From assembly GCA_048882485.1 (NCBI GenBank), contig JBHLRP010000001.1:32001-96000 (forward strand): a DNA stretch of 64,000 bases, in the 5' to 3' direction. Numbering within the stretch: position 1 is the stretch's first letter; each line of letters opens with the position of its first letter. Source of the stretch: Candidatus Thorarchaeota archaeon (GTDB lineage: Archaea > Asgardarchaeota > Thorarchaeia > Thorarchaeales > Thorarchaeaceae). The notes below the pieces were generated by a model. That model was not told where the DNA came from. It worked only from the letters and a program-made list of their open reading frames with translations, and searched no databases. Both the position numbers and the translations under genes were made by a program. Shown piece after piece: positions 1,976 to 55,005 of this stretch.

Positions 1976-4045
1976 ATGGAAATTGGAACGATATTACTCA
2001 TTGCAGCAATAGTAGCTGGCGCAGCTGATATAGTAGTCCTACTTCTGGGGCCCAGAATAAGAAACTATGATACAATCTCTATGATGATGGTATCAATAGG
2101 CACTCTATCTGCTCTCGGTGCAGTAATCTATATGCTGAGCCTCATCTTTGGAAATCAGTTTCAGTTCGAGTATGTGTATCTGACAACGGATTCTGCGGCT
2201 GTCTGGTGGTTGAAGATATCATCGCTCTGGGCGGGGCAACAGGGCTCTCTACTATTCTGGACTGCCATTTCATTTCTTTTGGTGATGACTTACCGAGTTG
2301 TAACTCGAGGATATGAAGATGATACAATTGTATACAGAGGAGCAATTCTTGTAGCGTTACAGACTGTTTTAATTGCAGTGAATGCATGGGCATCAGATCC
2401 ATTCAGATTAGTCGAAGGAAGCATTCCTGCCGAAGGCTTGGGACTTAACCCACTTCTAAGCACATTTTGGAATGCAATCCATCCACCAATTGTCTTCATT
2501 GCCTATGCAATTGCTGTCATACCATTCTCTGTCAAGCTCGCAGGCTTTACTGTACGCTCTGAAGAGCGAAATGCAGAGCCTATACCTGTTCTGGAGTCTC
2601 TTACTCGATTCATGACAGTGGCCTCGTGGCTTATACTCTCACTAGGAATTGCCATCGGAGCATTCTGGGCTTACACAGTTCTCGGTTGGGGTGGATATTG
2701 GGCATGGGATCCCGTGGAAACAACTTCACTTGTTCCATGGTTGCTTCTTACTGCATACTACCATGCTAACGCGGTCTTCAAAGAGAATGATGTTTTGCGA
2801 GACTCCTTCTTGGTATTCACTTATGTGACAGTGATATACGCCACTTGGGTGACTAGGAGTGGGGTGCTCAATTCGGTACATGGATTCTCAATCACCTTAG
2901 TCAGCTGGACTATGCTTGCAACCGTTCTATTCAATTTCTTGCTGGCCACCTTACTCACCATCAGAGCAGGTTATGTGGATATGCAGGATGAAGACGATGA
3001 TCAGGGTTGGAGATTCTTCTCACTATCCAACCTTAGGGATTTTTCGCTAAAAGTCGCCTTGATTGGCATCCTAGTGATTCTCACCACATCAGTAGCTGGA
3101 GTTGTATTGCCGGCGGCAATCAATCTTGGCGAAGCCATTATTGATCCTCTTGGGTTTACCGAGAATATGGTTTCGGTGGGATTAGAGTTCTTTAGGGCTG
3201 GGTTCTATCTAGGCTCACTGTTTCTAATTGCCTCAGCATTCTATTGTATGAGAAGCACAATCTTTCGTGCAAGGTTGAAATCGATATTGGTCTTAGCTCT
3301 AATTGGTGTGGGAGCAATACTAGCCATCCTAACGGTCACTACCGAACAAGCTCTACCTACACTTTATTGGCCAGCTAATGCACTGATTCCGTTGGGAATT
3401 GGAGGAGTAGCATATCTTGTCATTGCTTTTGCTCGTACAATGGCTGGGAGAGAAGGTGGCGCTTTCACAATGAGGCGCATGGGTCGACTTATGCTCCATT
3501 TAGGGCTCGTGGTTCTATTACTCGGTGTCTTTCTGAGTGAGAATGTGGTGATTGATCAGCGCAATTCCTACCTAGAGGGTGACTCTGCACAACTTGGTGC
3601 TTCAGGTATTGAAGTGGGAGTATCTGACATCAATCTAATCTATTGGAACAATCAATACGATTTTGAAATGCGTGTTCTGGTGCAGATTTTAGACGGTGGA
3701 TTTGCTTGGCTCGGAATAGTAGTAGTTAAGGGTAATCCAGAATGGCAACAGGTGTCCCAAGAAGTATTTGTGCAATCCACAGCCTTCAGAGACGTGTTCA
3801 TATCAGTCCGCACGTTCAACGACCTAGGTGGTGGCACTTTTACTGTGGACCTTGAAGCAAGGGTTCTTCCTTTGGTTTCATTCGTATGGCTTGGCACTTT
3901 CCTAATGATAATGGCCCTGCTACCTTTGAGTGCCATGGAGTTGTCTAACCTGCGAAGGGCTATTAAAGGGAGACAAGAAGACCTCTATGGTCCCACGGAG
4001 GATGACACCGAAGAGGAACTCCTAATATCTGCTGAAAATGAATGA
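1976..4045 (+). CDS. ccmF: Cytochrome c heme lyase CcmF
   Basis: WGGYWAWDPVET (WWD motif), WAGQQGSLLFW, GLNPLL...IHPP, TRSG..SVHGF; multi-TM. Confidence 0.95.
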   Translation: MEIGTILLIAAIVAGAADIVVLLLGPRIRNYDTISMMMVSIGTLSALGAVIYMLSLIFGNQFQFEYVYLTTDSAAVWWLKISSLWAGQQGSLLFWTAISFLLVMTYRVVTRGYEDDTIVYRGAILVALQTVLIAVNAWASDPFRLVEGSIPAEGLGLNPLLSTFWNAIHPPIVFIAYAIAVIPFSVKLAGFTVRSEERNAEPIPVLESLTRFMTVASWLILSLGIAIGAFWAYTVLGWGGYWAWDPVETTSLVPWLLLTAYYHANAVFKENDVLRDSFLVFTYVTVIYATWVTRSGVLNSVHGFSITLVSWTMLATVLFNFLLATLLTIRAGYVDMQDEDDDQGWRFFSLSNLRDFSLKVALIGILVILTTSVAGVVLPAAINLGEAIIDPLGFTENMVSVGLEFFRAGFYLGSLFLIASAFYCMRSTIFRARLKSILVLALIGVGAILAILTVTTEQALPTLYWPANALIPLGIGGVAYLVIAFARTMAGREGGAFTMRRMGRLMLHLGLVVLLLGVFLSENVVIDQRNSYLEGDSAQLGASGIEVGVSDINLIYWNNQYDFEMRVLVQILDGGFAWLGIVVVKGNPEWQQVSQEVFVQSTAFRDVFISVRTFNDLGGGTFTVDLEARVLPLVSFVWLGTFLMIMALLPLSAMELSNLRRAIKGRQEDLYGPTEDDTEEELLISAENE

Positions 4046-4069
4046 TAAAGGCCATTTTATCTAAGTCTA

Positions 4070-4186: not shown

Positions 4187-4819
4187 ATGGCAAGGGTCCT
4201 AGGCATTTCTGGCAGCAATAGGCAAGGTGGCAACACATCAATTCTTGTTGAAACCGCCCTTGATGCCGCAGAGGAGTATGGTGCTAGTATCGAGTTCATT
4301 GAGCTTGCTGATTTTGACATCAATCCGTGCAAACATTATTTGAAATGCTATGAACTTGGGCGCTGTAGTCAAGATGATGACTTGAATTCTATAATTGAAA
4401 AGATGTACAATGCCCATGGCATCATATTTGGCTCTCCTGTGCATTATGCAAGCGTTACATCTCAAATGAAGAGCTTTCTGGATCGTGTTGGCCGTTTCGC
4501 TCACCTTGAGGGTAAGATTGGCGCGGCATTTGCGGTAGCAAGAAAGTCTGGAGCGGACATTGCCCTTAATCAAATGCTTTTCTTCATGCTTGTAAAGGAG
4601 ATGATTGTTCCTGGGGGGGTTTCTTGGCCAATAGGATTTGCCATGAATGTAGGCGATATCAGAAACGATATGGAAGCCATGCGAATGGCTCGCCAGATGG
4701 GCAGACGCGTGGCAATTCTTTCGGACCTAGTGGCCAAAGTTCCCGTTCCTTGGTATTATGAGCCCCGACCTGTTGATGAGAAGGCGAGGTTTGGGGACGA
4801 ATGGCGGACAGCTAACTAG
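4187..4819 (+). CDS. Flavodoxin-fold iron-sulfur flavoprotein (Isf)/NADPH-dependent FMN reductase family
   Basis: GISGSNRQGGNT, GSPVHY..MKSFLDR; Cys cluster CKHYLKCYELGRC. Confidence 0.85.
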   Translation: MARVLGISGSNRQGGNTSILVETALDAAEEYGASIEFIELADFDINPCKHYLKCYELGRCSQDDDLNSIIEKMYNAHGIIFGSPVHYASVTSQMKSFLDRVGRFAHLEGKIGAAFAVARKSGADIALNQMLFFMLVKEMIVPGGVSWPIGFAMNVGDIRNDMEAMRMARQMGRRVAILSDLVAKVPVPWYYEPRPVDEKARFGDEWRTAN

Positions 4820-4837: not shown

Positions 4838-5218
4838 TCATGTTTCATATTTGCTTGGACATTGTGCAAGGATCTGAGAGGCACGTATTACTAGCTCTTC
4901 GCCATCCTCGAGAATTCCTATTGCCACCATGTCTTGACCGTCAGTCAATGTCGGCAGGTCTCCTTCAACAATAATCAATATGCTATTGCTGTCTCCATCC
5001 AGTACCAGCGTTACATTTCCAGGATCAATCGAGATAGAGCCCGGTTGAAGAGTTCCCTTTACTTGAATCAATCGTCCAGTGTATGCATCAGGATTCTCAA
5101 CCACAGCGTCAACACTGATGTAGGGGTCAACAAAGAAGTTTAGCATTCCATATGCGACGACACCTACTACTACAACAAGGACACCTGCAATCAATAGCAT
5201 GCGCGTCTTTTTCTTCAT
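4838..5218 (-). CDS. ccmE: Heme chaperone CcmE (CxxxY variant)
   Basis: N-terminal TM, OB-fold-like body, C-terminal AQCPSKY. Confidence 0.93.
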   Translation of the reverse strand: MKKKTRMLLIAGVLVVVVGVVAYGMLNFFVDPYISVDAVVENPDAYTGRLIQVKGTLQPGSISIDPGNVTLVLDGDSNSILIIVEGDLPTLTDGQDMVAIGILEDGEELVIRASQILAQCPSKYET

Positions 5219-5224
5219 CGATTC

Positions 5225-5620
5225 TCACTCCTGATTTGTATTGCTAACAAGCAATGCCAGGGACTCTTCAATGCCCGCTATCCCATACATCTGCCAGAGG
5301 AGCATAATAAACACTCCCGCCCAGACAACTATCGCCATTGGAAATAGTGGAATTAGTATCCACACAAATAGACCCGCCAGTAGAACTAGCACACCAACCA
5401 ATTCAAGGATGAGAGCGACATAGACAATCAATTTGCTTGGCATCTTAGGCAGTCCCACACTCTGCCCACTTGCGGAGGAAAGTATCGCTATTGTCTTGTT
5501 GAGTCCATTAATTCTGATGAATAGCCAGAAAAGCAAGGAAAAGGTTCCTACCCATAGAAAGACTGCAACTGTGAAGAGTTCATTAGAAAGCACGACTTCT
5601 GGTGATTGCATTTCACTCAC
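5225..5620 (-). CDS. ccmD: CcmD-like membrane protein with two tandem CcmD-like units
   Basis: Lies between ccmC and ccmE; two repeats, 'LWVGTFSLLFWLFIRINGLNKTIAIL' and 'VWAGVFIMLLWQMYGIAGIEESLALL'. Confidence 0.55.
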   Translation of the reverse strand: MSEMQSPEVVLSNELFTVAVFLWVGTFSLLFWLFIRINGLNKTIAILSSASGQSVGLPKMPSKLIVYVALILELVGVLVLLAGLFVWILIPLFPMAIVVWAGVFIMLLWQMYGIAGIEESLALLVSNTNQE

Positions 5621-6284
5621 TCCTCCTCATTCGTTGCTCCATCAGTCTTTCACTGACTGAATCTATTCTGTACGTTATATCAAGGATCAATGCGTAGACT
5701 AGACCGATGGCAATGAGGCTCACCATCAGAGTCATTCCATGTTCTATCCCCATCTGCAGCCCTTCTCCAGTTATAACAATTGGATGCAGAGTTTCCCATA
5801 CTCGAATTGAGATATAGCTAAGGATGACTGCGGGAAAAGCTATGATTCCGAAGATTGAGCCGTATTGTGCTCGTACATCTCGGTCATTGACTGATTCTCG
5901 ATAGGCAATCAAACATGCATAAGCAATCCATAGAATCAATGTAGTCGTTTCCCTTGGATCCCAGTTCCAAAATACGCCCCAAGTCGCATTGGCCCATACC
6001 ATACCACTCAACAAGGTGATGGAAGTGAAGACGAGGCCAATCTTGATTGATGCGGCACCGACCAGGTCGTAGCGTAAGTCTTGCTTCCAGAGATACGTGA
6101 CTCCGCAGATTAGCGTCACGCCAAATGCAAGATAGCCAATAAGTGCAGGAGCCACATGCTGAAAGAAGATTCTAATCTTCTCTCCAAGCTCCACTTCAGG
6201 CGGTGCGAATATCCATACCATGTAGAGGTAAAGGAAGGTGATTGCCAAGGATAGAATATACATCACCATTCGTTTTGTATTCAC
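5613..6284 (-). CDS. ccmC: Heme exporter/CcmE-loading protein CcmC
   Basis: RIFFQHVA, WGVFWNWDPRETT, TLHP. Confidence 0.95.
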   Translation of the reverse strand: MNTKRMVMYILSLAITFLYLYMVWIFAPPEVELGEKIRIFFQHVAPALIGYLAFGVTLICGVTYLWKQDLRYDLVGAASIKIGLVFTSITLLSGMVWANATWGVFWNWDPRETTTLILWIAYACLIAYRESVNDRDVRAQYGSIFGIIAFPAVILSYISIRVWETLHPIVITGEGLQMGIEHGMTLMVSLIAIGLVYALILDITYRIDSVSERLMEQRMRRSE

Positions 6285-6354
6285 TTCTTCACGTCCCTTG
6301 CTCGGCCGGTTCGAAGAAACAACTCAATATGAACATTATGATTGGAGTTCTTTT

Positions 6355-7077
6355 TCAAGCTGTAAGTGTGAATTGAAATACAGCAGCCGATAGCATCACC
6401 ATTGCAAAGGCATGTCCGGATAGCAGGAATAGTAACTCAGCAATTCCAGGACCGACGATTGGAATCCCGATTGCCAGCATTCGTGTAATCTCCACAAGCA
6501 GAATCAGGGCTGTTGTTGCAGTTGGAAAGTAGACTATGGGGTACACGGTTGCTTTCGATTCAGCCGGCATTGTCAGTGCAGAAGCCATAGCTCCAACTGC
6601 GGCCAAGTCCAATGTTCCCAAAATGAATGTGACTAGGACAAAGAGCGGTGACATCCCTGGGGCAAATGAGAAGCCTAGTAGACCCATGGCGATTGGAACC
6701 AAGAATACCTCAACAAGACCCATAAGCACGAACCCGTAGATGACTTTCCCTAGATATACTGACCATCCCGGAATTGGAGCGAGAGATAATCCCTTCAGAG
6801 TTCCAGTCTCTGACTCAGAGATGAATACTGGCGAGAAGCCAAACATTCCAGTGAAGAACACCACAACCCATAGCATTCCACTCCCTATCTCCGTCATTAC
6901 TTGGAGCCTAGCAGAAGGATCTGGTATGATAAATGTTGAAGAACTGAGCACGAGACCCAACACAAAGACGGCGATGATGGCGAACAGAAACATCGAAAAC
7001 GCTTCAAATCGTTTTCTCAATTGAGTGACCAAATCTTTCTTCGCGATTGCCAGTGCATATGATAGACCAGAACTCAT
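6355..7077 (-). CDS. ccmB: Heme exporter permease CcmB
   Basis: AIAKKDL, F.SE.ETGTLKGL.LAP, YLGK; about 6 TM; start set at ATG 7077, just past the ccmA stop. Confidence 0.9.
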   Translation of the reverse strand: MSSGLSYALAIAKKDLVTQLRKRFEAFSMFLFAIIAVFVLGLVLSSSTFIIPDPSARLQVMTEIGSGMLWVVVFFTGMFGFSPVFISESETGTLKGLSLAPIPGWSVYLGKVIYGFVLMGLVEVFLVPIAMGLLGFSFAPGMSPLFVLVTFILGTLDLAAVGAMASALTMPAESKATVYPIVYFPTATTALILLVEITRMLAIGIPIVGPGIAELLFLLSGHAFAMVMLSAAVFQFTLTA

Positions 7078-7087
7078 CTCATTCACC

Positions 7088-7762
7088 TCATATGTTTCCA
7101 TCAAACTCTGAGATAGGCCCGTGACCTATGATCTCTCCTTTTCTCAAGGTGATGAAATCATCACACATGTCTGACCCTAAAGCTAGGTTGTGTGTTGTAA
7201 GAACTGCAGTTCTGTCTTGCCGCTTTGCATCAATGTAGTTTCTGAACACCTCAGTAGAGTCTTTGTCGAGACCTGAGAAGGGTTCATCAAGCAAGAACAA
7301 ATTGGGATCATGCAATAGACTTCTGATTATATCGAATCTCTTTCTCAGTCCAGTTGAAAGAATCTTGGTTGGTTCATCCAACCACTGCCTCACGTCAAAT
7401 TGCTCTGCCAAGTCCTCTATAGCGGCATTAGCTGAGTCATCGTCTAGATCAAAGAGGTCAGCATAGAATCTGAGATTCTCTCTGCCAGTCAACTCACCGT
7501 ATAATAGAGGCTTGTCTCCGACAACACCAATCCGCTTTCTAACCTCGATAGGCTCTTCCTCGGTATCAAATCCGAAGACCTCTACCCTTCCTGCATGTGG
7601 CTGAAGGAGGGTTGAAATGATTCGCATTAGCGTGGTCTTGCCTGCACCATTGCTTCCGAATAGAGCATGAACGCCGCCAATTGGAACTTTGAAAGATATA
7701 TCCTTCAATGCTACTCTATAGCCATAGCGTCGAGTCAGTCCCTCAACTTGTATAGATACCAT
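7088..7762 (-). CDS. ccmA: Heme exporter ABC ATPase CcmA
   Basis: Walker A GSNGAGKTT, signature LSTGLRKR, Walker B LLLDEP, TTH; start at ATG 7762 (the longer ORF overlaps the divergent gene). Confidence 0.92.
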   Translation of the reverse strand: MVSIQVEGLTRRYGYRVALKDISFKVPIGGVHALFGSNGAGKTTLMRIISTLLQPHAGRVEVFGFDTEEEPIEVRKRIGVVGDKPLLYGELTGRENLRFYADLFDLDDDSANAAIEDLAEQFDVRQWLDEPTKILSTGLRKRFDIIRSLLHDPNLFLLDEPFSGLDKDSTEVFRNYIDAKRQDRTAVLTTHNLALGSDMCDDFITLRKGEIIGHGPISEFDGNI

Positions 7763-7834
7763 TTGAAATGCCTCACACAGGTCATTGTGGGAGCACCCAA
7801 CCCTTTTTTTAGTTTGACGGATGCGCCGTAGGGC

Positions 7835-10333: not shown

Positions 10334-10351
10334 GGTTGCTAATTAGCAACC
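10334..10351. promoter_or_regulatory. Perfect 18-bp palindrome, candidate transcription-factor site
   Basis: GGTTGCTAATTAGCAACC, intergenic between the two prenyl synthase genes. Confidence 0.5.
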
Positions 10352-47699: not shown

Positions 47700-47705
47700 A
47701 GCAAG

Positions 47706-48137
47706 ATGGGATTCTTCAGAAATCTAGGTGACATATTCCAGATATTGAGACACGTATTCCGTCAGGTGATGTCCCGTCCATTCACGTACTTCTATCCATT
47801 TGAGGACAGGGAATATCCAGAGAGGACTCGTGGAAGGCATATCTTTGTGCGTGAGAATTGCACATCATGCATGCAGTGTGTGCGGGCTTGTCCTGTTGTC
47901 GCTATTAGCATCGATAAGAGTGACAAGCATTTCGAGAAAGACGCCGCTCTATACTTTGACTATACGCGGTGCATATTCTGTGGACTATGCGTTCAAGCCT
48001 GCAGGTTTGATGCTTTGTTTCACACTCAGGTTGTTGATATCAGCGAAGGAGAGAGGGAGGACTTGCTCTATGGTCCTGACAAGATAGAAACTCTCGATCG
48101 AGACCCGCTTGAGTGGCGTGGAAGGAGGTTCCGTTGA
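47706..48137 (+). CDS. nuoI: Complex I-like subunit I (2x[4Fe-4S])
   Basis: YPFE..RGRH, CTSCMQCVRACP, CIFCGLCVQAC. Confidence 0.95.
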   Translation: MGFFRNLGDIFQILRHVFRQVMSRPFTYFYPFEDREYPERTRGRHIFVRENCTSCMQCVRACPVVAISIDKSDKHFEKDAALYFDYTRCIFCGLCVQACRFDALFHTQVVDISEGEREDLLYGPDKIETLDRDPLEWRGRRFR

Positions 48138-49654
48138 TGCAACTAGCCTTCGAGTTCCCATTCATGACCTTGTCCTTGCTAGTCCTCTTCATTGGAGGGC
48201 TCTTGATCTACCTCCTTCGCGGTCGACTCGAAAAGACATCAGGGAAAATTGCTGTTGGCTTCTCGGCGGTAAGCGCATTGCTAATGGTGCCTCCCTTCTA
48301 TCGTATCATGGTTGAAGGTGGTCGGGCTGCTGAGAAGGTCAGCTGGTCAGTTGTACTTGGAGAGTTTGGTCTCTACCTAGATGAGATTGCTTTTCCAATT
48401 ACATTCGCAGTTGTTGTCCTAGGATTCCTTTCGGTTATCTATGCTGTAGGCTATACTGAGCATACTGAGAATAAGCCCACTTTCTTTGCAAACACATTGT
48501 TCTTCATCATGGGCATGCAAGGCGTGACGCTTGCAACCAATTTGCTGGAATTCTTCATCTTTTGGGAGATCATGCTTGTCCCATCGTACTTCCTAATTCT
48601 GTTTTGGGGCTTGCCTGAAACCCGAAAACGAACTGCCATCAAGTTTTGGCTCTATACACAGGCTGGAGCGGTCTGTATTTTGATCGCCCTAGGTCTCTTG
48701 TACTTCTTCACAGGCACCTTTGAGCTCTACACAATTCTGGCAATGGCTCCTGCCATCTGGTCAGACCTCCGACTGCTGCAGATTATTTTCATCTTGTTCG
48801 CTGCTGGCTTCCTAGTCAAAATGGCGGCCTTCCCTCTGCATTGGTGGTTACCTCCAGTCCACGCCGAAGCTCCGACTCCTATATCGGTTCTGCTATCCGG
48901 AGCCATGATTGAAACCGGTGCTTATGCTCTCGTCCGTTTCGGAATCGTTACGCTTGGACCTGCAGCTGCCTCGCTCTCATTCTGGATTGGAGTACTTGGT
49001 GTTGCCACAATGTTCTACGGAGGAGCTATGGCGCTTGTACAGAAAGACATCAAGAGACTGCTGGCTTACTCATCAGTTTCCCAGATGGGCTATGTCCTCT
49101 TTGCCCTGGGCATGATTACCACATTCGGTGTAGCTGGCGGTCTGTTTCATCTCATCAATCATGCCTTCAGCAAGGGTGTCTTATTTATGACTGCTGGAGC
49201 CGTGATTCATCAGACTCATCTGAGGGATGTTGACAAGATGGGCGGTCTCTCAAACAAGATGCCCATCACTGCATTCGCTGCAGCTATCGGTGCAATGAGC
49301 ATTGCAGGGAGTCCTCCCCTCTCTGGATTCGCTAGTGAATGGATGATGTTTCTAGGGGGCTTTGATGCTGTTCTGATGGGACCAGGAGGTCTCGCCCGAC
49401 CTGAGTTCTTTTTCCTATCCATTTTGGCTGTATCAAGCTCCATTGTGAGTGCGGGCTACATGCTTCGGTATCTTTGGAAAGTCTTCCTTGGACCAAATCC
49501 AACAGAACTGGAGGATGTGAAAGAGAGTTCCAACTGGATGACTGCCCCAATGGTTGTCCTTGGTTTTCTCATAGTGTTGTTTGGAGTATTCCCAGGTTTG
49601 GCACTGGATGTCATTTTACCTGGTGTACAAGAAATAGCTACTCTGCTTCCATGA
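48137..49654 (+). CDS. nuoM: Antiporter-like subunit M, copy 1 (extra)
   Basis: FFIFWEIMLVPSYFLI..WG, KMAAFPLHWWLP.VHAEAPTP.SVLLSG, KRLLAYSSVSQMG. Confidence 0.85.
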   Translation: MQLAFEFPFMTLSLLVLFIGGLLIYLLRGRLEKTSGKIAVGFSAVSALLMVPPFYRIMVEGGRAAEKVSWSVVLGEFGLYLDEIAFPITFAVVVLGFLSVIYAVGYTEHTENKPTFFANTLFFIMGMQGVTLATNLLEFFIFWEIMLVPSYFLILFWGLPETRKRTAIKFWLYTQAGAVCILIALGLLYFFTGTFELYTILAMAPAIWSDLRLLQIIFILFAAGFLVKMAAFPLHWWLPPVHAEAPTPISVLLSGAMIETGAYALVRFGIVTLGPAAASLSFWIGVLGVATMFYGGAMALVQKDIKRLLAYSSVSQMGYVLFALGMITTFGVAGGLFHLINHAFSKGVLFMTAGAVIHQTHLRDVDKMGGLSNKMPITAFAAAIGAMSIAGSPPLSGFASEWMMFLGGFDAVLMGPGGLARPEFFFLSILAVSSSIVSAGYMLRYLWKVFLGPNPTELEDVKESSNWMTAPMVVLGFLIVLFGVFPGLALDVILPGVQEIATLLP

Positions 49655-49665
49655 GGTGATCGACA

Positions 49666-51984
49666 ATGTTGCTTGGACTACCCTATTGGCTTATCCTCGT
49701 CATTCCGCTGCTTGGCTCTCTCCTCGTTCCACTTGTTGGAAAATTCAGTGAGCGCGCGAGAGACTGGACCCCTGCAATCCTCATGGGAGCCTCTATGGTT
49801 CTATGCTGGTCGCTTCTACCTGAGATTGGAAACCCGACCCAGACCACGCACTGGATGTGGATTGAGGTCTTAGGACTCGAGTTCGAGGTTCTCCTGGACC
49901 CGCTCTCAGTTGTTATGGGGGTTCTAGCCAGCACTCTGTGTTTTCTCATCTATGTCTACTCTACAGAGTACATGGCTCATGAGGGCGATCGTGACCGCTT
50001 CTTCTTCCTCATGCTGGCATTCGGCGGTGGTATGCTGACGCTAGTGCTCAGCAACAACCTTCTGATTGCATTTATCGGATGGGAGATCATGGGATTTTGC
50101 TCCTATGGTTTGATAGGATTCTGGAATGACAAGAGGAACCCTCCCGAAACCGACCCATCAGACATTCACTCCACAAACCCGCTTCTTCAATTCAAGACCG
50201 AGGGACAGTACAACACCCACTGCGGGACCAAGGCATTCGTCGTCACGAGAATCGGTGATGCATTCATGTTGGGCGGTATCCTGATTCTGTTCGTCTTCAC
50301 TGGCACCTTTTCCTTCACTGAGATGGCGGCTGATGCCCAATCATGGTGGAGCACTATGGCAGGTATCGGGATGCTTGTGCCGACATTCCTACTCATCTTC
50401 ATGGGTGCAATCGGCAAGTCCGGACAGGCTCCACTGCAGGTCTGGTTGCCGGAAGCAATGGCTGGCCCGACAAGCGTTTCGGCTCTCATTCACGCTGCGA
50501 CGATGGTCAAGGCGGGTGTCTATATCACCGCTCGATTCCTGGTCACAATGGTGTCAGCAGCCGGTGGTGAGGGCAATGGTGGTGAACATATCGCTGGACT
50601 TCAGGCAATTGGTTTTGAAGCAGCGTTGACCTTTTTCATCTTTGTAGCAATCATCGGCGGTATTACTGCTCTCATGACAGCGACCATGGGAATGGTCTCA
50701 AACGAGCTCAAGCAGATACTGGCATTCTCAACACTCAGCCAGCTTGGATACATGATGCTCTCACTAGGTGTGGGCGGCGTCCTTCAGGCTGAGGGACTTC
50801 ACTTCACTGATGCATACTTGAGCGGTGTGATGCATGTGATATCGCATGGTGCATTCAAGGCCCTTCTATTCCTTGCATCAGGAGGTGTTATACACGCCGT
50901 CCATACCAAGTTCATCACCAAGATGGGCGGTCTGAAGCAATACATGCGGAAGACCTTCATCGTGATGTGGATTGGTGTGCTTGCCCTCGCAGGTATCCCA
51001 CCGTTCTCAGGGTTCTGGTCAAAGGACTCTATCATCGAGTATGCCTATGAATTGGCGGTTGAATGGCCAAATCCGATAGGTTGGATGCTATTCTTCTTTG
51101 CTGTCTTAGCCGCAGCCTGCACGATATTCTATAGCATTCGACTCATGGGCATCACTTTCTATGGACCTTCCAAGGAGAGTCATGACCATCACGAGTCACA
51201 CAGCTCACACGAGAATGAGGATTCAGAAGAGCCTGAAGACCTACATTATGATGGCTTAGAGGAAAATGAAGAATCTCATGATAGTGACTCAGAGAAGCAA
51301 GAAGAACCACATGACAACCACTCCGAAGAGCAGCATCACTCAACTCCTCAAGATCCGGGTCCGGCAATGATGGTGCCATTATATCTACTAGCGGCCTTTA
51401 CTGTCATTGCATTCCTTGTCTTCCCGTTTGTTCAGAACATTGTACTTGAAGAGAGTCACTCTTGGGCTGAGAACTTAGCGCACATGATAGAGGTCAAGCT
51501 GACCTACCCAGGAATTGTGCCTTTCATGATAACGCTAGGCGCGCTCGCCCTCGGCGGAGTTCCTGGATACATGATGTACATCAGGGGTGCTGACTCTCCC
51601 AATACTTGGGTGCCGGAGAAGGGCTTCCGAAGGAGATTTCACAATTTCCTAAAGCATCGCTGGTACATCAATGAATTCTACTATTGGATATTGAACAAAT
51701 TCCTGAGTGCGGCAGAGCGTTATCGAGTGAATGTTGACAACAAAATCATTGATGGCATCGACTTCAAGTCTGCTGACGCAGGGAAAGGTCTAGCAACGAA
51801 GCTGAAATGGTTTGATGATAATGTGGTTGATGGCTTTGCTGAGGGGGTTTCTACTTACAGTGTTGCAGCTTCAGAGTCCAGTCAGTCTGCACAGACTGGT
51901 CGAGTCAATGACTATGTGGGAGTGATAATGTTCGGGATTGGAATTCTGGTCATAATCGTTCTATTATCTCTGGGGGTGCTCTAG
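49666..51984 (+). CDS. nuoL: Antiporter-like subunit L with extended lateral helix and His/acidic loop
   Basis: GWEIMGFCSY.LIGFW, KSGQAPLQVWLPEAMAGPTSVSALIHAATMV, GFWSKD, QTGRVNDY. Confidence 0.95.
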   Translation: MLLGLPYWLILVIPLLGSLLVPLVGKFSERARDWTPAILMGASMVLCWSLLPEIGNPTQTTHWMWIEVLGLEFEVLLDPLSVVMGVLASTLCFLIYVYSTEYMAHEGDRDRFFFLMLAFGGGMLTLVLSNNLLIAFIGWEIMGFCSYGLIGFWNDKRNPPETDPSDIHSTNPLLQFKTEGQYNTHCGTKAFVVTRIGDAFMLGGILILFVFTGTFSFTEMAADAQSWWSTMAGIGMLVPTFLLIFMGAIGKSGQAPLQVWLPEAMAGPTSVSALIHAATMVKAGVYITARFLVTMVSAAGGEGNGGEHIAGLQAIGFEAALTFFIFVAIIGGITALMTATMGMVSNELKQILAFSTLSQLGYMMLSLGVGGVLQAEGLHFTDAYLSGVMHVISHGAFKALLFLASGGVIHAVHTKFITKMGGLKQYMRKTFIVMWIGVLALAGIPPFSGFWSKDSIIEYAYELAVEWPNPIGWMLFFFAVLAAACTIFYSIRLMGITFYGPSKESHDHHESHSSHENEDSEEPEDLHYDGLEENEESHDSDSEKQEEPHDNHSEEQHHSTPQDPGPAMMVPLYLLAAFTVIAFLVFPFVQNIVLEESHSWAENLAHMIEVKLTYPGIVPFMITLGALALGGVPGYMMYIRGADSPNTWVPEKGFRRRFHNFLKHRWYINEFYYWILNKFLSAAERYRVNVDNKIIDGIDFKSADAGKGLATKLKWFDDNVVDGFAEGVSTYSVAASESSQSAQTGRVNDYVGVIMFGIGILVIIVLLSLGVL

Positions 51985-51985
51985 A

Positions 51986-53530
51986 GTGCAGCTCGGATTC
52001 ATCCAAGACCTCATCGCAATGTTGCCAATGGACAATATACTACCACTGATGCTATTTGCTCCATTAGTCGCAGCATTCTTTGCCTACATACTCGGTGCAA
52101 GAGGGGGTAGGGCTCTCACGCTCATTGTCACATTCGTTGAACTCCTGCTTTCGCTTGTCCTCATTGTAGCAATTCTGCCGAATCCAGGAGCTATGTGGTT
52201 TGAATGGTCGTTCACACTTAGCGATGTGCAATTCGGGAGCTGGAATGCTCTCCTCCAGATATACCTAGGTGTTGACGGAATATCCGTTGCCATGGTGTTT
52301 CTTTCAAACCTCGTGGTCTTCATTGCAGCACTCAGTTCAAACCATATCAAGAAATCACAGCATCTGTACTACATGTTCTTCCTGATGCTCCAGACAGGTC
52401 TGCTTGGCGTATTCATGTCATTTGATCTGATCAGCTTCTTCATCTTCTGGGAATTGGTCTTGATACCGATGTTCTTCATAATAGGAAGATGGGGCGAAGA
52501 GGGATGTGAACACGCAGCTGTCAAGTTCTTCATCTACACACATCTCGGCTCAGCTGTGATGTTGGTCTCATTCATGGCACTGTTCTTCCTAGGACCCGGT
52601 ACATTCAACATGATTGCGATCAAGGCTGCACCAATTGCAATCAACATTCAGATTGGCTTTGCACTGGCTGTCTTTCTGGGGGCTGGCGTCAAGCTTCCTG
52701 TCTTTCCATTGCACAACTGGCTTCCGTGGGCCCACGTCAAGGCGCCAACTCCTGGTTCAGTGATACTCGCTGGAATACTCTTGAAGATGGGTGGATACGG
52801 GTTCATTAGACTGGGTCTTTGGATGGTTCCGCAAGGATTTGCTCGACTCAGTATCCCATTCGCTGTCCTCGCGGTCTTCACATGCATCTATGCAGCCTTT
52901 GTGGCAATGGGTCAGACTGACGTTAAGTCAATGGTAGCCTATACATCAATCAACCACATGGCATGGGTGTTGCTTGGAGTTGCCATCGGAGGATTTGCCA
53001 TCGGAGGTGGAGCCACAGAGGGCCAACTCTTCTCAGCCAGCCTTGCAGTTCAAGGCGCAGTATTCATGATGGTATCCCATGGGATGATATCCTCTGTCAT
53101 GTTCATTCTTGCCGGCCAGCTGAAGTACTCGGCTGGAAGCAGACTGATTCCTGATGTCATGGGTCTTATGACGAAAGCTCCTAGAATGTCCGCTGTCTTT
53201 ATCCTCGCGGTCTTTGCAGCCTTTGGGTTGCCCGGAATGAGCGGATTCATTGCAGAGGCCCTTGTACTGTTTGGGTCAGTGAACATCTACATATGGTCTG
53301 GCTTCATTGCATTTGGAATCTTTGTCACGGTAGGATATCTCCTTTGGACCCTGAACCGAATTGTGTTTAGTGATCCAGACCCTGAGAAGGAGGTCACTGA
53401 AGCACCATGGAGTGATCTCATTGCACCAATCTTGATGATGATACCAGTAATCATCCTCGGGCTTTGGCCAGATCTTGTGCTCAATCTAGTGATACCGATA
53501 GTCAACGATATGATAGGGGTGATTCCATAA
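51986..53530 (+). CDS. nuoM: Antiporter-like subunit M, copy 2
   Basis: LGVDGIS, FFIFWELVLIPMFFIIGRWG, KLPVFPLHNWLPWAHVKAPTPGSVILAGILLKMGGYG. Confidence 0.93.
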   Translation: MQLGFIQDLIAMLPMDNILPLMLFAPLVAAFFAYILGARGGRALTLIVTFVELLLSLVLIVAILPNPGAMWFEWSFTLSDVQFGSWNALLQIYLGVDGISVAMVFLSNLVVFIAALSSNHIKKSQHLYYMFFLMLQTGLLGVFMSFDLISFFIFWELVLIPMFFIIGRWGEEGCEHAAVKFFIYTHLGSAVMLVSFMALFFLGPGTFNMIAIKAAPIAINIQIGFALAVFLGAGVKLPVFPLHNWLPWAHVKAPTPGSVILAGILLKMGGYGFIRLGLWMVPQGFARLSIPFAVLAVFTCIYAAFVAMGQTDVKSMVAYTSINHMAWVLLGVAIGGFAIGGGATEGQLFSASLAVQGAVFMMVSHGMISSVMFILAGQLKYSAGSRLIPDVMGLMTKAPRMSAVFILAVFAAFGLPGMSGFIAEALVLFGSVNIYIWSGFIAFGIFVTVGYLLWTLNRIVFSDPDPEKEVTEAPWSDLIAPILMMIPVIILGLWPDLVLNLVIPIVNDMIGVIP

Positions 53531-55005
53531 TGCTACAGGTTTCCACAATAATCGATGCTATCAGCGACATCTTGAGTCCCTTCTTTGCACTAGTCCCAGC
53601 GGATTGGCTAGTATCATTACCAGCTTTGACGCTCATCCTATTCGGAATCTTGGCACTCATTGTAGGAATGAGAAGAAGTCCTTTGGCAGTCAGTTTCATT
53701 GGCATTGCCCTTGCAGGCTTTGAGATGATTCTCATTGACCCGGGTTCTTCCTTTGGAGGACTATTTGTAAGAGACATGTTTGGTGATTTCTTCATCTGGA
53801 TCATTCTGGTTGTCGCATTCATAATACTGCTTTCGTCGACGACATACGGTGGAAATAAGGGTACATACAACTTTCTCCTCATGATGTCATTTGCTGGCGC
53901 AATTTGGGTCGTTATGGCAACCGATCTTGTGGCGCTGTTTTTGGCATGGGAACTCATGAGTACGCCGACATATGTGCTTGTTGCGCTAGGGCCCCACAGA
54001 GGAGCTATTGATGGAGCTACCAAGTACTTCGTCATGGGACTCCTATCGTCAACTCTCATCCTATTTGGAATCGCGATTGTTTATGGTACAACAGGTGCCA
54101 CAAGCTTTGCCGCTGTTGCTGCATTTGTTAGTGTCGTCTGGAGCGCCGCTTCTCCGTCTGCCTACGCAATGCTTCTGTCCATGGTGCTGTTCCTGATCGG
54201 TTTTGGATTCAAGGTCGGTGTGTTCCCAGGATGGATGTGGGTCCCCGACGCATATGCAACTGCTGACGGAAGCGTCACAGGATATCTGGCCGGTGCAACC
54301 AAGAAGACAGGTGTAAGTGCCCTCCTTCGGATACTACTCGTTGCATTTGTTGCAGCACAAATGGAATGGATGCCTGTCGTAGTCACTATCTCGATTCTTT
54401 CCATGATCATTGGGAATATTCTTGCACTCGCTCAGCGCAACATCATGAGAATGTTAGCCTTCTCATCCATCATGATGATGGGTCTACTCTTCGTGGGGAT
54501 TGCAGCCGGAACGGCCTTTGGAGCAGCAGCTGCGATGTTTACCGCGTTTGCCCATGCACTCATCAAGACGGGCGCGTTTATCCTGGTTTGGGCATTGGCT
54601 GTTTCCATTGGAAAAGAGGTCACATATGATGATTTGAAAGGACTCAGTACTCGTGCTCCGATTGTTGCTCTATTGATGGCAATAATGGTCTTTGCTCTAG
54701 CAGGCGCACCATTCACAGCAGGATTCTGGTTCAAGTGGTTTCTATTGCCTGGAGCTGCAGTCGATGCTGGGCTTTGGTGGTTGGCGATAATTGCTGTGCT
54801 GAACTCAGTATTTGCACTTGGCTATTACTTGAGAATCCTAAGGTATTGCTACTTCATGGAACCAACAGAAGGTACAACATTACGCATACCGACGATTCCT
54901 CTTGTTGCGGTGCTACTTGCAGTTGTGGGTACAATAATGATTGGCGTCTTTCCGGGTCTAATCCTGGACTATGCATCGTTGGCAGCTGGAGTCCTCGTCC
55001 CATAG
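53530..55005 (+). CDS. nuoN: Antiporter-like subunit N
   Basis: LAWELMS..YVL, ATKYFVMG, GFKVGVFP.WMWVPDAY, GNILALAQ.N..RMLAFSS, YYLRI. Confidence 0.92.
   Translation: MLQVSTIIDAISDILSPFFALVPADWLVSLPALTLILFGILALIVGMRRSPLAVSFIGIALAGFEMILIDPGSSFGGLFVRDMFGDFFIWIILVVAFIILLSSTTYGGNKGTYNFLLMMSFAGAIWVVMATDLVALFLAWELMSTPTYVLVALGPHRGAIDGATKYFVMGLLSSTLILFGIAIVYGTTGATSFAAVAAFVSVVWSAASPSAYAMLLSMVLFLIGFGFKVGVFPGWMWVPDAYATADGSVTGYLAGATKKTGVSALLRILLVAFVAAQMEWMPVVVTISILSMIIGNILALAQRNIMRMLAFSSIMMMGLLFVGIAAGTAFGAAAAMFTAFAHALIKTGAFILVWALAVSIGKEVTYDDLKGLSTRAPIVALLMAIMVFALAGAPFTAGFWFKWFLLPGAAVDAGLWWLAIIAVLNSVFALGYYLRILRYCYFMEPTEGTTLRIPTIPLVAVLLAVVGTIMIGVFPGLILDYASLAAGVLVP

What the first reader, a model, noticed from the sequence alone, without database searches (positions are those of the whole stretch)
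1976..55005. A self-contained ~53-kb respiratory island (quinone + heme c + CuA + flavin/HdrD modules + 2M complex I) in a probable Asgard archaeon
Seen: nearly every gene from ccmF to nuoN is redox-related. The island holds cofactor machinery (ccm, polyprenyl synthases, menA, GGR), five FAD/CCG module pairs, three surface cytochromes, putative b-cytochromes, a CuA operon and a proton-pumping complex. Established: Thor/Loki-type Asgards are usually modelled as fermenters or acetogens. Inference: this is a branched menaquinone-linked electron transport chain in which one recurring flavin-HdrD unit is plugged into different membrane partners (cytochrome b, TM anchor, complex I). I know no named system with this architecture.
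Basis: partly seen in the sequence, partly recalled or inferred. Interest (0 to 1): 0.9.

Follow-up and report, generated by a model that had tools for sequence, protein, structure and literature searches.

The report
Thorarchaeal electron-transport gene supercluster
An uncultured Asgard (Thorarchaeota) archaeon, a group usually described as fermenters, keeps a conserved block of genes for a four-pump complex I-like machine fused to a flavin enzyme, five flavin/iron-sulfur cassettes, lipid-carrier genes and cell-surface haem and copper proteins. It lacks known routes to make haem or a quinone head group, so any respiration would need scavenged cofactors.

Summary
Window 1976-55005 carries ccmABCEF, GGR/IdsA/MenA-like genes and five GlcD-like flavoprotein + HdrD-like pairs. 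It also carries three paralogous surface haem proteins, a CuA/NapH-like operon and an 11-subunit complex I-like operon with four antiporter-like subunits. The block starts about 2 kb upstream of the window, at a multihaem cytochrome.

Relatives are titled Thorarchaeota. The modules recur, shuffled but clustered, in five other genomes.
- The pump occurs in 12 of 17 genera.
- CcmF occurs in 16 of 40 good genomes.
- The MenA-like gene occurs in 37 of 40.

The "self-contained menaquinone chain" reading is only partly supported.
- No men/mqn head-group genes (MqnA/D 0/40).
- No HemB (0/40).
- No terminal oxidase in this genome.
- NuoD lacks the quinone-binding Tyr.
- The flavoproteins lack the 2-hydroxyacid-dehydrogenase catalytic motifs.
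- One conserved gene is a sugar-enzyme-like surface protein.

NuoB is fused to one flavoprotein. A sister family keeps NuoB unfused.

Best reading (0.42): a ferredoxin-driven pump and flavin/CCG cassettes exchange electrons through a prenylated carrier, with an optional route to the cell surface. I found no paper describing this. The scan has already reported the same fusion and island on other Thor genomes.

The parts
1..1957 (+). 3' part of a 754-aa conserved surface protein: N-terminal TM, (alpha/alpha)6 barrel, two Ig-like domains and a C-terminal TM. It follows a multihaem cytochrome that lies just upstream of the window (G000:C1:30087-31553).
   Evidence: No Pfam family. AF2 model has mean pLDDT 60. 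Foldseek matches GH76 and sugar 2-epimerase barrels with TMt 0.6-0.75. The MHC-754aa-CcmF triple is conserved in 5 of 5 relatives.
1976..4045 (+). CcmF (haem lyase of cytochrome c maturation system I)
   Evidence: PF01578 at 7e-26 and 13 predicted TM segments. Single copy. Found in 16 of 40 good family genomes.
4187..4819 (+). FMN_red / WrbA-like flavoprotein
   Evidence: PF03358 at 1e-32. Weak match to NAD(P)H:quinone oxidoreductase. Conserved beside ccm genes in G001 and G002.
4838..7969 (-). ccmE, a 131-aa 3-TM ORF (possible CcmD-like), ccmC, ccmB and ccmA
   Evidence: Pfam CcmE, Cytochrom_C_asm, CcmB and ABC_tran. CcmE carries the Cys variant motif CPSKY and has no His.
7835..9037 (+). Geranylgeranyl-reductase family flavoprotein
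   Evidence: TIGR02032 at 235.8 bits, above cut-off.
9097..11307 (-). IdsA/GGPP-synthase-like polyprenyl synthase (9097-10167) and a divergent 290-aa paralog (10435-11307)
   Evidence: PF00348 at 1e-62 and 1e-15. Best NCBIfam hits are IdsA and GGPP synthase, below cut-offs.
11459..12544 (+). MenA-like UbiA prenyltransferase
   Evidence: All best NCBIfam hits are MenA equivalogs; TIGR00751 scores 101.6 against a cut-off of 102.15. It is one of four UbiA genes in the genome. Found in 37 of 40 family genomes.
12549..15680 (-). Cassette 1: HdrD-like CCG protein, GlcD-like flavoprotein and a 137-aa 4-TM protein
   Evidence: Order conserved in G005.
15926..16849 (+). PadR-family regulator
   Evidence: PF03551 at 3e-11.
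17007..20273 (+). Copper operon: a surface EB_dh (haem b-type) protein, a 640-aa CuA cupredoxin fused to a NapH-like polyferredoxin membrane protein, and a 124-aa CuA protein
   Evidence: Pfam and NCBIfam hits. CuA motifs CSVPCGNFHPFM and CTIFCGSGHYEM. Found in only 1 of 5 relatives searched.
20371..24561 (-). Cassette 2: GlcD-like flavoprotein with a C-terminal TM tail, HdrD-like protein, a 165-aa membrane protein (faint DUF2231 match) and a 251-aa surface monohaem protein
   Evidence: Conserved in G002 and G005.
24787..27794 (-). Cassette 3: GlcD-like flavoprotein with a TM tail, plus HdrD-like protein
   Evidence: Conserved in G003 and G005.
27798..29129 (-). HpnE/CrtI-family flavin desaturase (an isoprenoid-chain enzyme family)
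   Evidence: PF01593 at 4e-37. Best NCBIfam hit is HpnE at 120 bits, below cut-off.
29137..32939 (-). Cassette 4: HdrD-like protein, GlcD-like flavoprotein and a 398-aa fusion of a surface monohaem domain with a 4-TM domain that has five invariant His (candidate b-haem conduit)
   Evidence: Relatives carry a canonical CxxCH in the fusion protein. Conserved in G001, G003 and G005.
33086..34838 (-). PNPOx-like protein and a DUF7530 membrane domain fused to a PNPOx-like domain
   Evidence: Weak matches to the F420-dependent PPOX class. Conserved next to HdrD 5 in distant relatives.
34908..36131 (-). HdrD-like CCG protein 5, divergent partner of the fused flavoprotein
   Evidence: PF02754 at 1e-31 with two CCG motifs. 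Lies within about 0.3-4.5 kb upstream of the fusion gene, on the opposite strand, in 10 of the 12 relatives tabulated.
36256..39930 (-). 1224-aa surface monohaem protein with PKD/Ig repeats and a C-terminal anchor
   Evidence: CxxCH at residue 36 and PKD domains. Present in L008, L015 and L031.
40186..42141 (+). GlcD-like flavoprotein fused through an amphipathic linker to a complete NuoB
   Evidence: PF01565 at 2e-40 plus PF01058 at 5e-24. NuoB N2 ligands are GLGCC, GQC and PGCPP. The fusion is full length in about 33 species genomes.
42138..43120 (.). Two small conserved 3-TM proteins (177 aa on + strand, 119 aa on - strand) between the fusion gene and nuoA
   Evidence: No Pfam family. Conserved at 32-93% identity in all relatives tabulated.
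43455..48137 (+). nuoA, J, K, C, D, H, I (there is no nuoB between K and C)
   Evidence: Pfam hits. NuoD motif ERLCMLEAF replaces DRLDY.
48113..55005 (+). Four antiporter-like subunits: M' (513 aa), L (772 aa), M (514 aa) and N (513 aa)
   Evidence: PF00361 in all four. NCBIfam assigns NuoM, NuoM and NuoN to M', M and N; NuoL is assigned from Pfam PF00361 plus PF00662 and its PDB matches. Key charged residues are kept. NuoL lateral-helix insertion of 29 aa.

Best explanation
This is a conserved Thorarchaeial gene supercluster for membrane electron transport, built from exchangeable modules.

1. A head-less, four-pump ('2M') complex I-like enzyme most likely takes electrons from reduced ferredoxin at NuoI. 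It passes them through the NuoI and NuoB iron-sulfur clusters to a lipid-soluble prenylated carrier and pumps ions.
2. Five paralogous cassettes each pair a membrane-surface VAO/PCMH-type flavoprotein with an HdrD/GlcF-like CCG iron-sulfur protein. They exchange electrons between cytoplasmic substrates, still unknown, and the same carrier or a dedicated membrane partner. One cassette is tethered to the pump by fusing its flavoprotein to NuoB.
3. MenA-like, IdsA-like, GGR-like and HpnE/CrtI-like genes make or tailor the carrier's prenyl tail.
4. Where present, the Ccm system, a multihaem cytochrome, three monohaem surface proteins, a c/b-type cytochrome fusion and a CuA/NapH-like conduit carry electrons to the cell surface.

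Shown here: the parts, their motifs, their conservation and their distribution. Inferred: ferredoxin as donor, the carrier, the direction of flow, and an extracellular sink. Haem and the carrier's head group would have to be scavenged or made by unknown routes.
For: - Parts and motifs.
- Pump: 11 core subunits; no NuoEFG in the operon; complex-I-type tandem-Cys N2 site. NuoB is closest to Nqo6/NdhK at 1e-40. There is a fourth NuoM-type subunit with the TM5 Glu, TM7 Lys and TM12 Glu, and a 29-aa lateral-helix insertion in NuoL.
- Fusion: conserved full length at 73-98% identity in about 33 species genomes. In the 5.8-billion-protein set the fusion appears only with Asgard labels, almost all Thorarchaeota (one mislabelled Hodarchaeota).
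- Sister family genome G006 has the same operon order with an unfused 152-aa NuoB between K and C. The fusion is therefore a derived rewiring of an existing pump.
- Flavoprotein and CCG protein are one polypeptide (900-1030 aa) in the nearest non-Thor homologs, which argues that the pairs work together.
- All five flavoproteins end in amphipathic or transmembrane tails.
- Clustering is conserved though shuffled in G001-G005.
- The MenA-like gene lies about 1-3 kb upstream of HdrD 5 (about 2.5-4.5 kb from the fusion gene) in most distant relatives.
- Cassette 4 sits next to a fusion of a monohaem domain and a 4-TM domain with five invariant His.
- From established knowledge: ferredoxin is the usual donor of head-less complex I relatives (NDH-1, Fpo-like), and a fifth pumped proton needs a large redox span.
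Against: - NuoD has Cys-Met in place of the Asp-Tyr that binds the quinone head. This is invariant in 25 Thor loci, and G006 has Cys-Phe. Its best solved match is the sulfur-reducing MBS subunit MbsL.
- No futalosine or classical menaquinone head-group genes.
- No HemB or HemC.
- No haem-copper oxidase, cytochrome bd or NarI/HdrE in this genome.
- CcmF is present in only 16 of 40 good genomes, so most pump-bearing genomes lack the cytochrome branch.
- The MenA-like gene also occurs in genera that lack the pump.
- The flavoproteins lack the catalytic metal motifs of characterised relatives, so no substrate can be named.
- The copper operon was found in 1 of 5 relatives.
Confidence: 0.42

Rival explanations
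1. The pump plus the fused flavoprotein and HdrD 5 form a self-contained ferredoxin:acceptor oxidoreductase. Electrons from ferredoxin end on a cytoplasmic acceptor (a disulfide, a 2-oxoacid, fumarate or similar) reduced at the flavin/CCG module. This follows what is proposed for the Fpo-like complex with HdrD in Methanomassiliicoccales. A free quinone pool is not needed; at most there is a bound shuttle.
For: - NuoD lacks the quinone-binding Tyr in all Thor loci.
- No head-group pathway is found.
- HdrD 5's best family matches are thiol:fumarate reductase TfrB, LdhH and GlpC.
- The fusion ties the flavoprotein physically to the N2 subunit.
- The pump occurs in many genomes without ccm genes.
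- From established knowledge: a span from ferredoxin to an acceptor near -150 mV fits a high-stoichiometry pump.
Against: - The NuoB N-terminus lies at the membrane surface, far from the NuoI entry site (general complex I structure, from knowledge).
- The N2 site is of the complex I type, with tandem Cys and not the three-Cys catalytic cluster of MBS.
- MenA-like, IdsA-like and GGR-like genes are tightly linked to this module.
- The unfused sister operon in G006 has no flavin/CCG genes within its 20 kb.
Confidence: 0.2
2. Reverse electron transport. The flavin/CCG cassettes oxidise mid-potential organic donors and reduce the lipid carrier. The four-pump enzyme then uses the ion gradient to drive those electrons uphill to ferredoxin for the Wood-Ljungdahl pathway and biosynthesis.
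For: - Four intact pump modules. From knowledge: an extra pump gives more driving force per electron pair in the reverse direction, as argued for 2M enzymes of nitrite oxidisers (Chadwick et al. 2018, recalled from memory; the paper is not held here).
- There are many flavin/CCG cassettes, as expected for multiple donors.
- No terminal oxidase is found.
Against: - No substrate can be assigned, and the catalytic motifs are absent.
- It needs another source of ion gradient.
- It does not explain the surface cytochromes and CuA proteins.
- It has the same NuoD Tyr and head-group problems as the main reading.
Confidence: 0.15
3. Co-location without a common chain. The isoprenoid genes serve membrane lipids, the flavin/CCG pairs are independent catabolic enzymes, and the cytochromes and copper proteins serve detoxification or metal handling. 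The clustering reflects shared regulation or shared history only.
For: - The modules have different phyletic distributions: pump 12 of 17 genera, CcmF 5 of 16, MenA-like 15 of 16.
- Gene order is shuffled between genomes.
- A non-redox sugar-enzyme-like protein is conserved inside the block.
- The genome has other GGR, UbiA and polyprenyl-synthase paralogs.
Against: - The modules stay adjacent after repeated rearrangement in five genomes.
- The MenA-like protein's best matches are all MenA and not lipid synthases.
- Cassettes are physically fused or adjacent to membrane and surface redox partners.
- One flavoprotein is covalently fused to NuoB.
Confidence: 0.1

Closest known systems
'2M' complex I (extra NuoM plus elongated NuoL; Chadwick, Hemp, Fischer & Orphan 2018, ISME J; cited from memory, the paper is not held in the library)
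   Same: Four antiporter-like subunits. The extra one is NuoM-type and keeps the key Glu and Lys residues. NuoL's lateral helix is lengthened by 29 residues, roughly one subunit width.
   Different: No NuoEFG in the operon. NuoB is removed from the operon and fused to a flavoprotein. NuoD lacks the Asp-Tyr of the quinone site. The gene order A-J-K-C-D-H-I-M'-L-M-N is unusual.
Head-less 11-subunit complex I relatives: cyanobacterial NDH-1, archaeal Fpo/Fqo and the Fpo-like/HdrD system proposed for Methanomassiliicoccales
   Same: Core subunits A-D and H-N without an NADH module. The NuoB part is 44-47% identical to Methanoperedens Fpo and planctomycete NuoB. An HdrD-like protein is genetically associated.
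   Different: No FpoF or FpoO. Methanoperedens FpoD keeps DRLDY whereas the Thor NuoD has ERLCM. The flavoprotein is covalently fused, and there is a fourth pump.
MBS, the membrane-bound sulfane-sulfur reductase of Pyrococcus furiosus (PDB 6U8Y; PMC7684303)
   Same: It is the best solved match of the Thor NuoD (1e-57, full length). The quinone Tyr is absent, and the Cys equivalent to MbsL C85 is kept.
   Different: The Thor enzyme has a complex I membrane arm (NuoA/J/K/L with a lateral helix) and not an Mrp-type module. It keeps the His38 equivalent that MBS lacks. Its N2 site has tandem Cys, and NuoB matches Nqo6 far better than MbsJ (1e-40 against 5e-29).
GlcDEF / GlpABC / LdhAB-type flavoprotein + CCG iron-sulfur dehydrogenases, and the hypothesised HdrD-GlcD modules of Bathyarchaeia and Methanomethylicia
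   Same: An FAD_binding_4 flavoprotein is paired, or in other lineages fused, with a 2x[4Fe-4S] plus 2xCCG protein.
   Different: All five Thor flavoproteins and their 120 nearest homologs lack the HxGDGNxH and EHG motifs of LDHD, D2HGDH and GlcD. They carry membrane tails, and one is fused to NuoB.
NrfA / octahaem nitrite reductase / OcwA-type multihaem cytochromes
   Same: The upstream 488-aa cytochrome matches the C-terminal part of NrfA and octahaem reductases (Pfam 1.4e-15; PDB 8.5e-9). It has N- and C-terminal anchors, as expected for a surface protein.
   Different: It has six CxxCH motifs plus CX5CH-type variants and no CxxCK catalytic motif. The match covers only about 150 residues.
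NapH / NosR-type membrane polyferredoxins and CuA domains of NosZ / CoxB
   Same: The 640-aa protein has two CxxCP-type motifs, 4Fe-4S motifs and a NapH/MauN match. Both copper proteins have the full CuA ligand set.
   Different: The CuA domain is fused directly to the NapH-like protein, and neither NosZ nor CoxA is present in the genome.

Membership tests
Complex I superfamily, 11-subunit head-less type | Subunits NuoA, B, C, D, H, I, J, K, L, M and N encoded together | tested here: met
   Pfam hits for all of them. NuoB is present only as the C-terminal part of the 651-aa fusion.
Complex I superfamily, 11-subunit head-less type | No NuoEFG/FpoF input module belonging to the complex | tested here: met
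   There is none in the operon. A NuoE/F/G-like cluster on contig C7 sits beside NfnAB-like genes. It occurs in only 10 of 40 family genomes, including a pump-less genus, so it is not correlated with the pump.
Complex I (quinone-reducing) | NuoB N2 cluster with tandem Cys ligands | tested here: met
   GLGCCMVDG, GQCAASGG and LPGCPP.
Complex I (quinone-reducing) | NuoD His38 and Tyr87 (T. thermophilus numbering) that bind the quinone head | tested here: not met
   The His equivalent is kept (GPQHVSAHG). Asp86-Tyr87 are replaced by Cys-Met in all 25 Thor loci. G006 has Cys-Phe.
2M complex I | A second NuoM-type antiporter-like subunit with intact charged residues | tested here: met
   TIGR01972 at 315.8 bits, above cut-off. 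The TM5 Glu, TM7 Lys and TM12 Glu are present.
2M complex I | NuoL lateral helix lengthened by about one subunit width | tested here: met
   A 29-residue insertion relative to three Methanoperedens FpoL sequences, shared with G006.
MBS/MBX | Mrp-type membrane module and a three-Cys catalytic proximal cluster | tested here: not met
   The membrane arm is NuoA/J/K/H/L/M/N. The proximal cluster motif is the complex I tandem Cys (against PMC7684303).
Group 4 [NiFe] hydrogenase | Four Ni-Fe cysteine ligands in the large subunit | tested here: not met
   Only the first N-terminal Cys remains. The C-terminus reads SLDPYPGWWDR, without Cys.
GlcD / LDHD / D2HGDH 2-hydroxyacid dehydrogenases | FAD_binding_4 and FAD-oxidase_C domains | tested here: met
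   PF01565 at 1e-34 to 1e-41 in all five. PF02913 is weak, from 4e-11 to 8e-4.
GlcD / LDHD / D2HGDH 2-hydroxyacid dehydrogenases | Catalytic metal ligands (HxGDGNxH and EHG motifs) | tested here: not met
   The alignment to LDHD 8JDB shows Tyr, Val and Ala at these positions. The motifs are absent from all five paralogs and from the 120 nearest homologs.
HdrD / GlcF / GlpC CCG iron-sulfur proteins | Two ferredoxin-type 4Fe-4S motifs plus two CCG domains | tested here: met
   PF02754 with two stretches in all five (1e-25 to 1e-35). Two CCG motifs are found in four of the five and one in copy 1.
MenA (DHNA polyprenyltransferase) | Sequence membership | tested here: inconclusive
   All best hits are MenA equivalogs but below cut-offs. 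TIGR00751 scores 101.6 against 102.15.
Menaquinone biosynthesis | A head-group pathway (Men or futalosine) | tested here: not met
   PF02621 gives no hit. MqnC scores 22 bits. MenB gives only crotonase paralogs at 140 bits or less against a cut-off of 343. PF02621 is absent from 40 of 40 good family genomes. MenD, MenF and UbiE were not searched.
Cytochrome c maturation system I | CcmA, B, C, E and F | tested here: met
   Pfam hits. CcmE has the Cys-type CxxxY motif. CcmD, CcmG and CcmH were not identified.
Haem-dependent respiration | A tetrapyrrole pathway in the same genome | tested here: not met
   HemB and HemC are absent from the own genome, which is 90.5% complete. HemB is absent from 40 of 40 family genomes.
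CuA cupredoxin | H...Cx3Cx3Hx2M ligand set | tested here: met
   Both the 124-aa protein and the 640-aa protein have it.

The most novel reading that the evidence does not exclude
Most Thorarchaeia are not pure fermenters. They run a cofactor-scavenging anaerobic respiration. A ferredoxin-driven five-proton pump carries a covalently attached flavin/HdrD-like module and feeds a prenylated carrier. In about 40% of lineages the carrier passes electrons to surface haem and copper proteins that hand them to minerals, humics or a partner cell. Haem and the carrier's head group are obtained from neighbours. That would be an obligately community-dependent respiratory chain in close relatives of the eukaryotic host lineage.
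Probability: 0.2. Interest if true: 0.85.

Novelty: new variant of a known kind. Interest (0 to 1): 0.68.

Why it matters
Thorarchaeota are modelled as fermenters or acetogens without an electron transport chain (10.1101/385732; 10.1101/2024.07.04.601786). A lineage-wide high-stoichiometry pump with a flavoenzyme wired onto its last iron-sulfur subunit, plus optional surface cytochromes, would change energy budgets assumed for Asgard archaea in sediments.

It also bears on syntrophy models of eukaryogenesis, because the chain appears to depend on haem and a quinone head group from other organisms.

The NuoD site (His kept, Tyr lost, one hydrogenase-type Cys kept) and the unfused sister operon give a natural series for studying how complex I relatives change substrate.

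Tried and rejected
The genomic context of the nearest non-Thor NuoD homologs (P0182 at 49%, P0184) could not be read.
- Complex prediction of HdrD 5 with NuoI gave no verdict (score 0.00, controls not run). It is not evidence either way.
- The look-up of sequencing runs listed no RNA holder, so expression could not be examined.
- The ESM Atlas gave no usable hit for the 754-aa protein.
- The two primary Thorarchaeota papers (PMC4918440, PMC5864231) and Chadwick et al. 2018 are not held. 'Not described' therefore means not found in the searchable library.
- A regex for the NuoL helix motif failed on other loci and was replaced by an alignment.
- Hydrogenase reading of NuoD: rejected, because the Ni-Fe cysteines are missing.
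- D-lactate or glycolate dehydrogenase as the identity of the flavoproteins: rejected, because the catalytic motifs are absent.
- MenA-like as the organism's only UbiA/lipid prenyltransferase: rejected, because the genome has four UbiA genes.
- Mobile genomic island: no integrase, tRNA boundary or composition shift was seen. 'Island' here means a conserved gene cluster.
- The distal NuoEFG-like cluster as the missing head of the pump: judged unlikely, because its distribution does not follow the pump.

Full report
**Observation.** I translated the 55 large ORFs of the window and scanned them against Pfam and NCBIfam.

- CcmF (1976-4045) and CcmE/C/B/A (4838-7969).
- An FMN_red flavoprotein.
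- A geranylgeranyl-reductase family gene, two polyprenyl synthases and a MenA-like UbiA gene (7835-12544).
- Five pairs of an FAD_binding_4/FAD-oxidase_C ('GlcD-like') flavoprotein with a Fer4+CCG ('HdrD-like') protein.
- A copper operon (17007-20273).
- nuoA-J-K-C-D-H-I followed by four antiporter-like genes (43455-55005).

The fifth flavoprotein (40186-42141) is fused in frame to a complete NuoB.

Five of the genome's 11 GlcD-like loci and five of its 17 HdrD-like loci lie in this block. The nuo, ccm, MenA-like and copper genes are single copy.

**Boundaries.** The right edge is nuoN. Downstream lie a Ras-family GTPase, an ADP-forming CoA ligase subunit and unrelated genes.

The left edge is outside the window. 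G000:C1:30087-31553 encodes a 488-aa anchored cytochrome with six CxxCH motifs, two CX5CH-type motifs and a CLHCM. It is NrfA/c554/MtrC-like by Pfam and matches the C-terminal part of NrfA and octahaem reductases at 8.5e-9. A 754-aa gene follows, of which the window holds the last 651 codons. MutS lies beyond.

**Organism and contig integrity.** The fusion protein is found full length at 73-98% identity in about 33 species-representative genomes, nearly all titled Thorarchaeota, including SMTZ1-45 and AB_25.
- The genome (3.96 Mb, 90.5% complete, 5.8% contamination) has about a dozen Ras-family GTPase paralogs.
- Composition is flat at 45-50% GC.
- Contigs assembled from other samples bridge 8867-13954 and 16539-24000 with a handful of differences.
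- One 110-kb contig of a relative carries the same block.

The contig is Asgard and not chimeric.

**Conservation.** I ran tblastn of the window's proteins against flanks of the fusion gene, and against further stretches fetched from five relatives. The same modules appear in shuffled order but always clustered.
- G003: cassettes 3 and 4, the HpnE-like gene and the 398-aa cytochrome fusion, then MHC, the 754-aa gene, CcmF, GGR, IdsA, MenA, the two PNPOx genes, HdrD 5, the fusion gene and nuo.
- G002: nuoLMN, then MHC, the 754-aa gene, CcmF, FMN_red, ccmECBA and cassette 2 with its membrane and monohaem genes.
- G005: cassettes 1-3 and the copper operon on the fusion contig, with the ccm block on another contig.

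Across the class (87 genomes, 17 genera), the orthologous NuoD at 74% identity or more is present in genera g1-g12. It is replaced by only a 32% paralog in g13-g16.

Among 40 genomes at least 90% complete, CcmF is in 16 (5 of 16 genera) and the MenA-like gene in 37 (15 of 16 genera), including genera without the pump. The copper operon was found in one of five relatives.

The block is therefore a modular toolkit with a stable core: MenA-like, HdrD 5, the fusion gene and nuo.

**The pump.** NuoB's N2 ligands are of the complex I type (GLGCC, GQC, PGCPP). The NuoB part matches Nqo6/NdhK at 1e-40 against MbsJ at 5e-29.

NuoD is unusual.
- Its best solved match is MbsL of the Pyrococcus sulfur reductase MBS (1e-57, full length), ahead of complex I 49-kDa subunits.
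- The His38 equivalent is kept.
- Asp86-Tyr87, the quinone-head ligands, are Cys-Met in all 25 Thor loci. Methanoperedens FpoD keeps DRLDY.
- The Ni-Fe cysteines of hydrogenases are otherwise gone.
- Outside Thor, identity falls to 49% for one metagenomic protein that also lacks Asp-Tyr, then to 38% or less for canonical sequences.

The extra antiporter-like subunit is NuoM-type (TIGR01972 at 315.8 bits). All four subunits keep the TM5 Glu, TM7 Lys and TM12 Lys/Glu. NuoL has a 29-residue insertion in the lateral helix relative to three-pump Fpo enzymes. These are the two features that define '2M' complex I; that definition is recalled from memory.

Genome G006, from a sister family, has the same operon order with an unfused 152-aa NuoB between nuoK and nuoC, the extra M' and the long NuoL, and Cys-Phe in NuoD. 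Housekeeping genes flank it. The four-pump enzyme with the altered NuoD site therefore predates the fusion. The main Thor family later moved NuoB onto a flavoprotein.

A NuoE/F/G-like cluster exists on contig C7 beside NfnAB-like genes. It occurs in only 10 of 40 genomes and does not track the pump.

**The cassettes.** The flavin domain is clear (PF01565 down to 1e-41). Aligned to mouse LDHD, however, the metal ligands His, His and Glu are Tyr, Val and Ala. The HxGDGNxH and EHG motifs are absent from all five paralogs and from the 120 nearest database homologs. No substrate can be named.

The nearest non-Thor homologs (38-40% identity) are single 900-1030-aa proteins that fuse this flavoprotein to the Fer4+CCG part. 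This argues that each pair works as a unit.

Every flavoprotein ends in an amphipathic or transmembrane tail. In copy 5 the tail runs on into NuoB.

Partners differ between cassettes:
- A 137-aa 4-TM protein (cassette 1).
- A 165-aa membrane protein plus a 251-aa surface monohaem protein (cassette 2).
- A transmembrane tail only (cassette 3).
- A 398-aa protein that joins a surface monohaem domain to a 4-TM domain with five invariant His (cassette 4). The monohaem motif is CxxCH in relatives and CX5CH here.
- NuoB (cassette 5).

**Carrier and cofactors.** All best matches of the UbiA gene are MenA, just under cut-off. The genome has three other UbiA genes.

IdsA-like, GGR-family and HpnE/CrtI-like genes fit the tailoring of a prenyl tail.

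The cofactor and terminal-acceptor findings are:
- The genome has no MqnA/D, no MqnC and no MenB above cut-off. MqnA/D is absent from 40 of 40 good family genomes.
- HemB and HemC are also absent, and HemB is absent from 40 of 40, although 16 of those genomes encode CcmF.
- No haem-copper oxidase, cytochrome bd or NarI/HdrE-type cytochrome was found in this genome.
- One Fdh/Nas/Phs-like molybdoenzyme sits on C5.

The chain is therefore not self-contained. A menaquinone assignment is unproven.

**Mechanism.** I commit to a modular electron-transport system.
- Ferredoxin feeds the pump at NuoI.
- The pump reduces a prenylated carrier.
- The flavin/CCG cassettes exchange electrons with that carrier or with their own membrane partner.
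- In some lineages electrons reach surface haem and copper proteins.

Confidence is 0.42. The parts and their conservation are shown. The donor, the carrier, the direction of flow and the sink are inferred.

The altered NuoD site and the missing head-group pathway keep two other readings alive. One is a closed ferredoxin:acceptor oxidoreductase that ends on the flavin/CCG module (0.2). The other is reverse electron transport (0.15). Simple co-location is less likely (0.1), because the modules stay together after repeated rearrangement and are physically fused to membrane partners.

**Literature and earlier notes.** Ten full-text searches and seven readable papers turned up no description of the fusion, the cassettes or Thor cytochromes. 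The papers that mention Thor bioenergetics call the electron transport chain missing or incomplete. The primary Thor papers and the 2M paper are not held.

The scan itself has already reported the same fusion and island on other Thor genomes. Its lead about haem and head-group auxotrophy was tested here and holds. Its figure of 'about four in ten relatives' with the cytochrome branch matches my 16 of 40.

**Verdict.** This is a new variant of known kinds of modules, of real interest for Asgard physiology, and it rests on genomic inference only.

Noticed in passing
G000:C1:30087-31553 (about 0.45-1.9 kb upstream of window base 1; locus L080:16087-17553): A 488-aa membrane-anchored multihaem cytochrome with six CxxCH motifs, two CX5CH-type motifs and a CLHCM. 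It is NrfA/c554/MtrC-like. It is conserved with the 754-aa gene and CcmF in all five relatives examined.
   Followed up: partly
window 1-1957 (full gene is L080:17693-19957): The 754-aa protein conserved between the multihaem cytochrome and CcmF models as an anchored (alpha/alpha)6 barrel like GH76 or sugar 2-epimerases, plus two Ig-like domains. It is a non-redox surface protein inside the redox block. The model has only medium confidence (mean pLDDT 60).
   Followed up: partly
window about 51150-51320 (NuoL residues about 497-550): A loop of about 50 residues rich in His, Asp and Glu. It is absent from the G006 NuoL and from Methanoperedens FpoL. Its function is unknown; metal binding is possible.
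   Followed up: no
G000:C7:41195-48105 (locus L093:2195-9105): A NuoE-like, NuoF-like and NuoG-like (molybdopterin-fold) operon next to NfnAB/glutamate-synthase-small-subunit-like genes. It is probably a soluble bifurcating module. It occurs in 10 of 40 family genomes and is not correlated with the pump.
   Followed up: partly
G000:C5:7449-13408 (locus L092:3449-9408): An 833-aa Fdh/NasC/PhsA-like molybdoenzyme lies two ORFs upstream (about 1.9 kb) of a NosD-like parallel beta-helix protein. It is the only candidate molybdopterin reductase besides the NuoG-like protein.
   Followed up: no
locus L087 (G006:C23:3700-15100): A sister family has the same four-pump operon with an unfused 152-aa NuoB between nuoK and nuoC and the NuoD motif ERACF. 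Housekeeping genes flank it. It represents the pre-fusion state.
   Followed up: yes
window 43101-43451: This 116-aa ORF between the small membrane gene and nuoA is only partly matched, in one close relative, and is absent elsewhere. It is probably not a gene.
   Followed up: partly
window 10435-11307: The second polyprenyl-synthase gene is a divergent 290-aa paralog (PF00348 at 57.7 bits) that is not separately conserved in distant relatives. It may be a regulatory or degenerate subunit.
   Followed up: no
window 55212-55850 and elsewhere in G000: A Ras/Roc-family small GTPase lies directly after nuoN. About a dozen paralogs are spread across the genome, a eukaryote-like signature typical of Asgard archaea.
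   Followed up: no
L084:8359-10497 (G001), G013:C20:43758-44819, G036:C276:254-2077: In-frame stops in orthologs: one in the 754-aa gene, one TAG in a MenA-like gene and one TGA in a NuoF-like gene. Each could be a sequencing error, a pseudogene or recoding.
   Followed up: no
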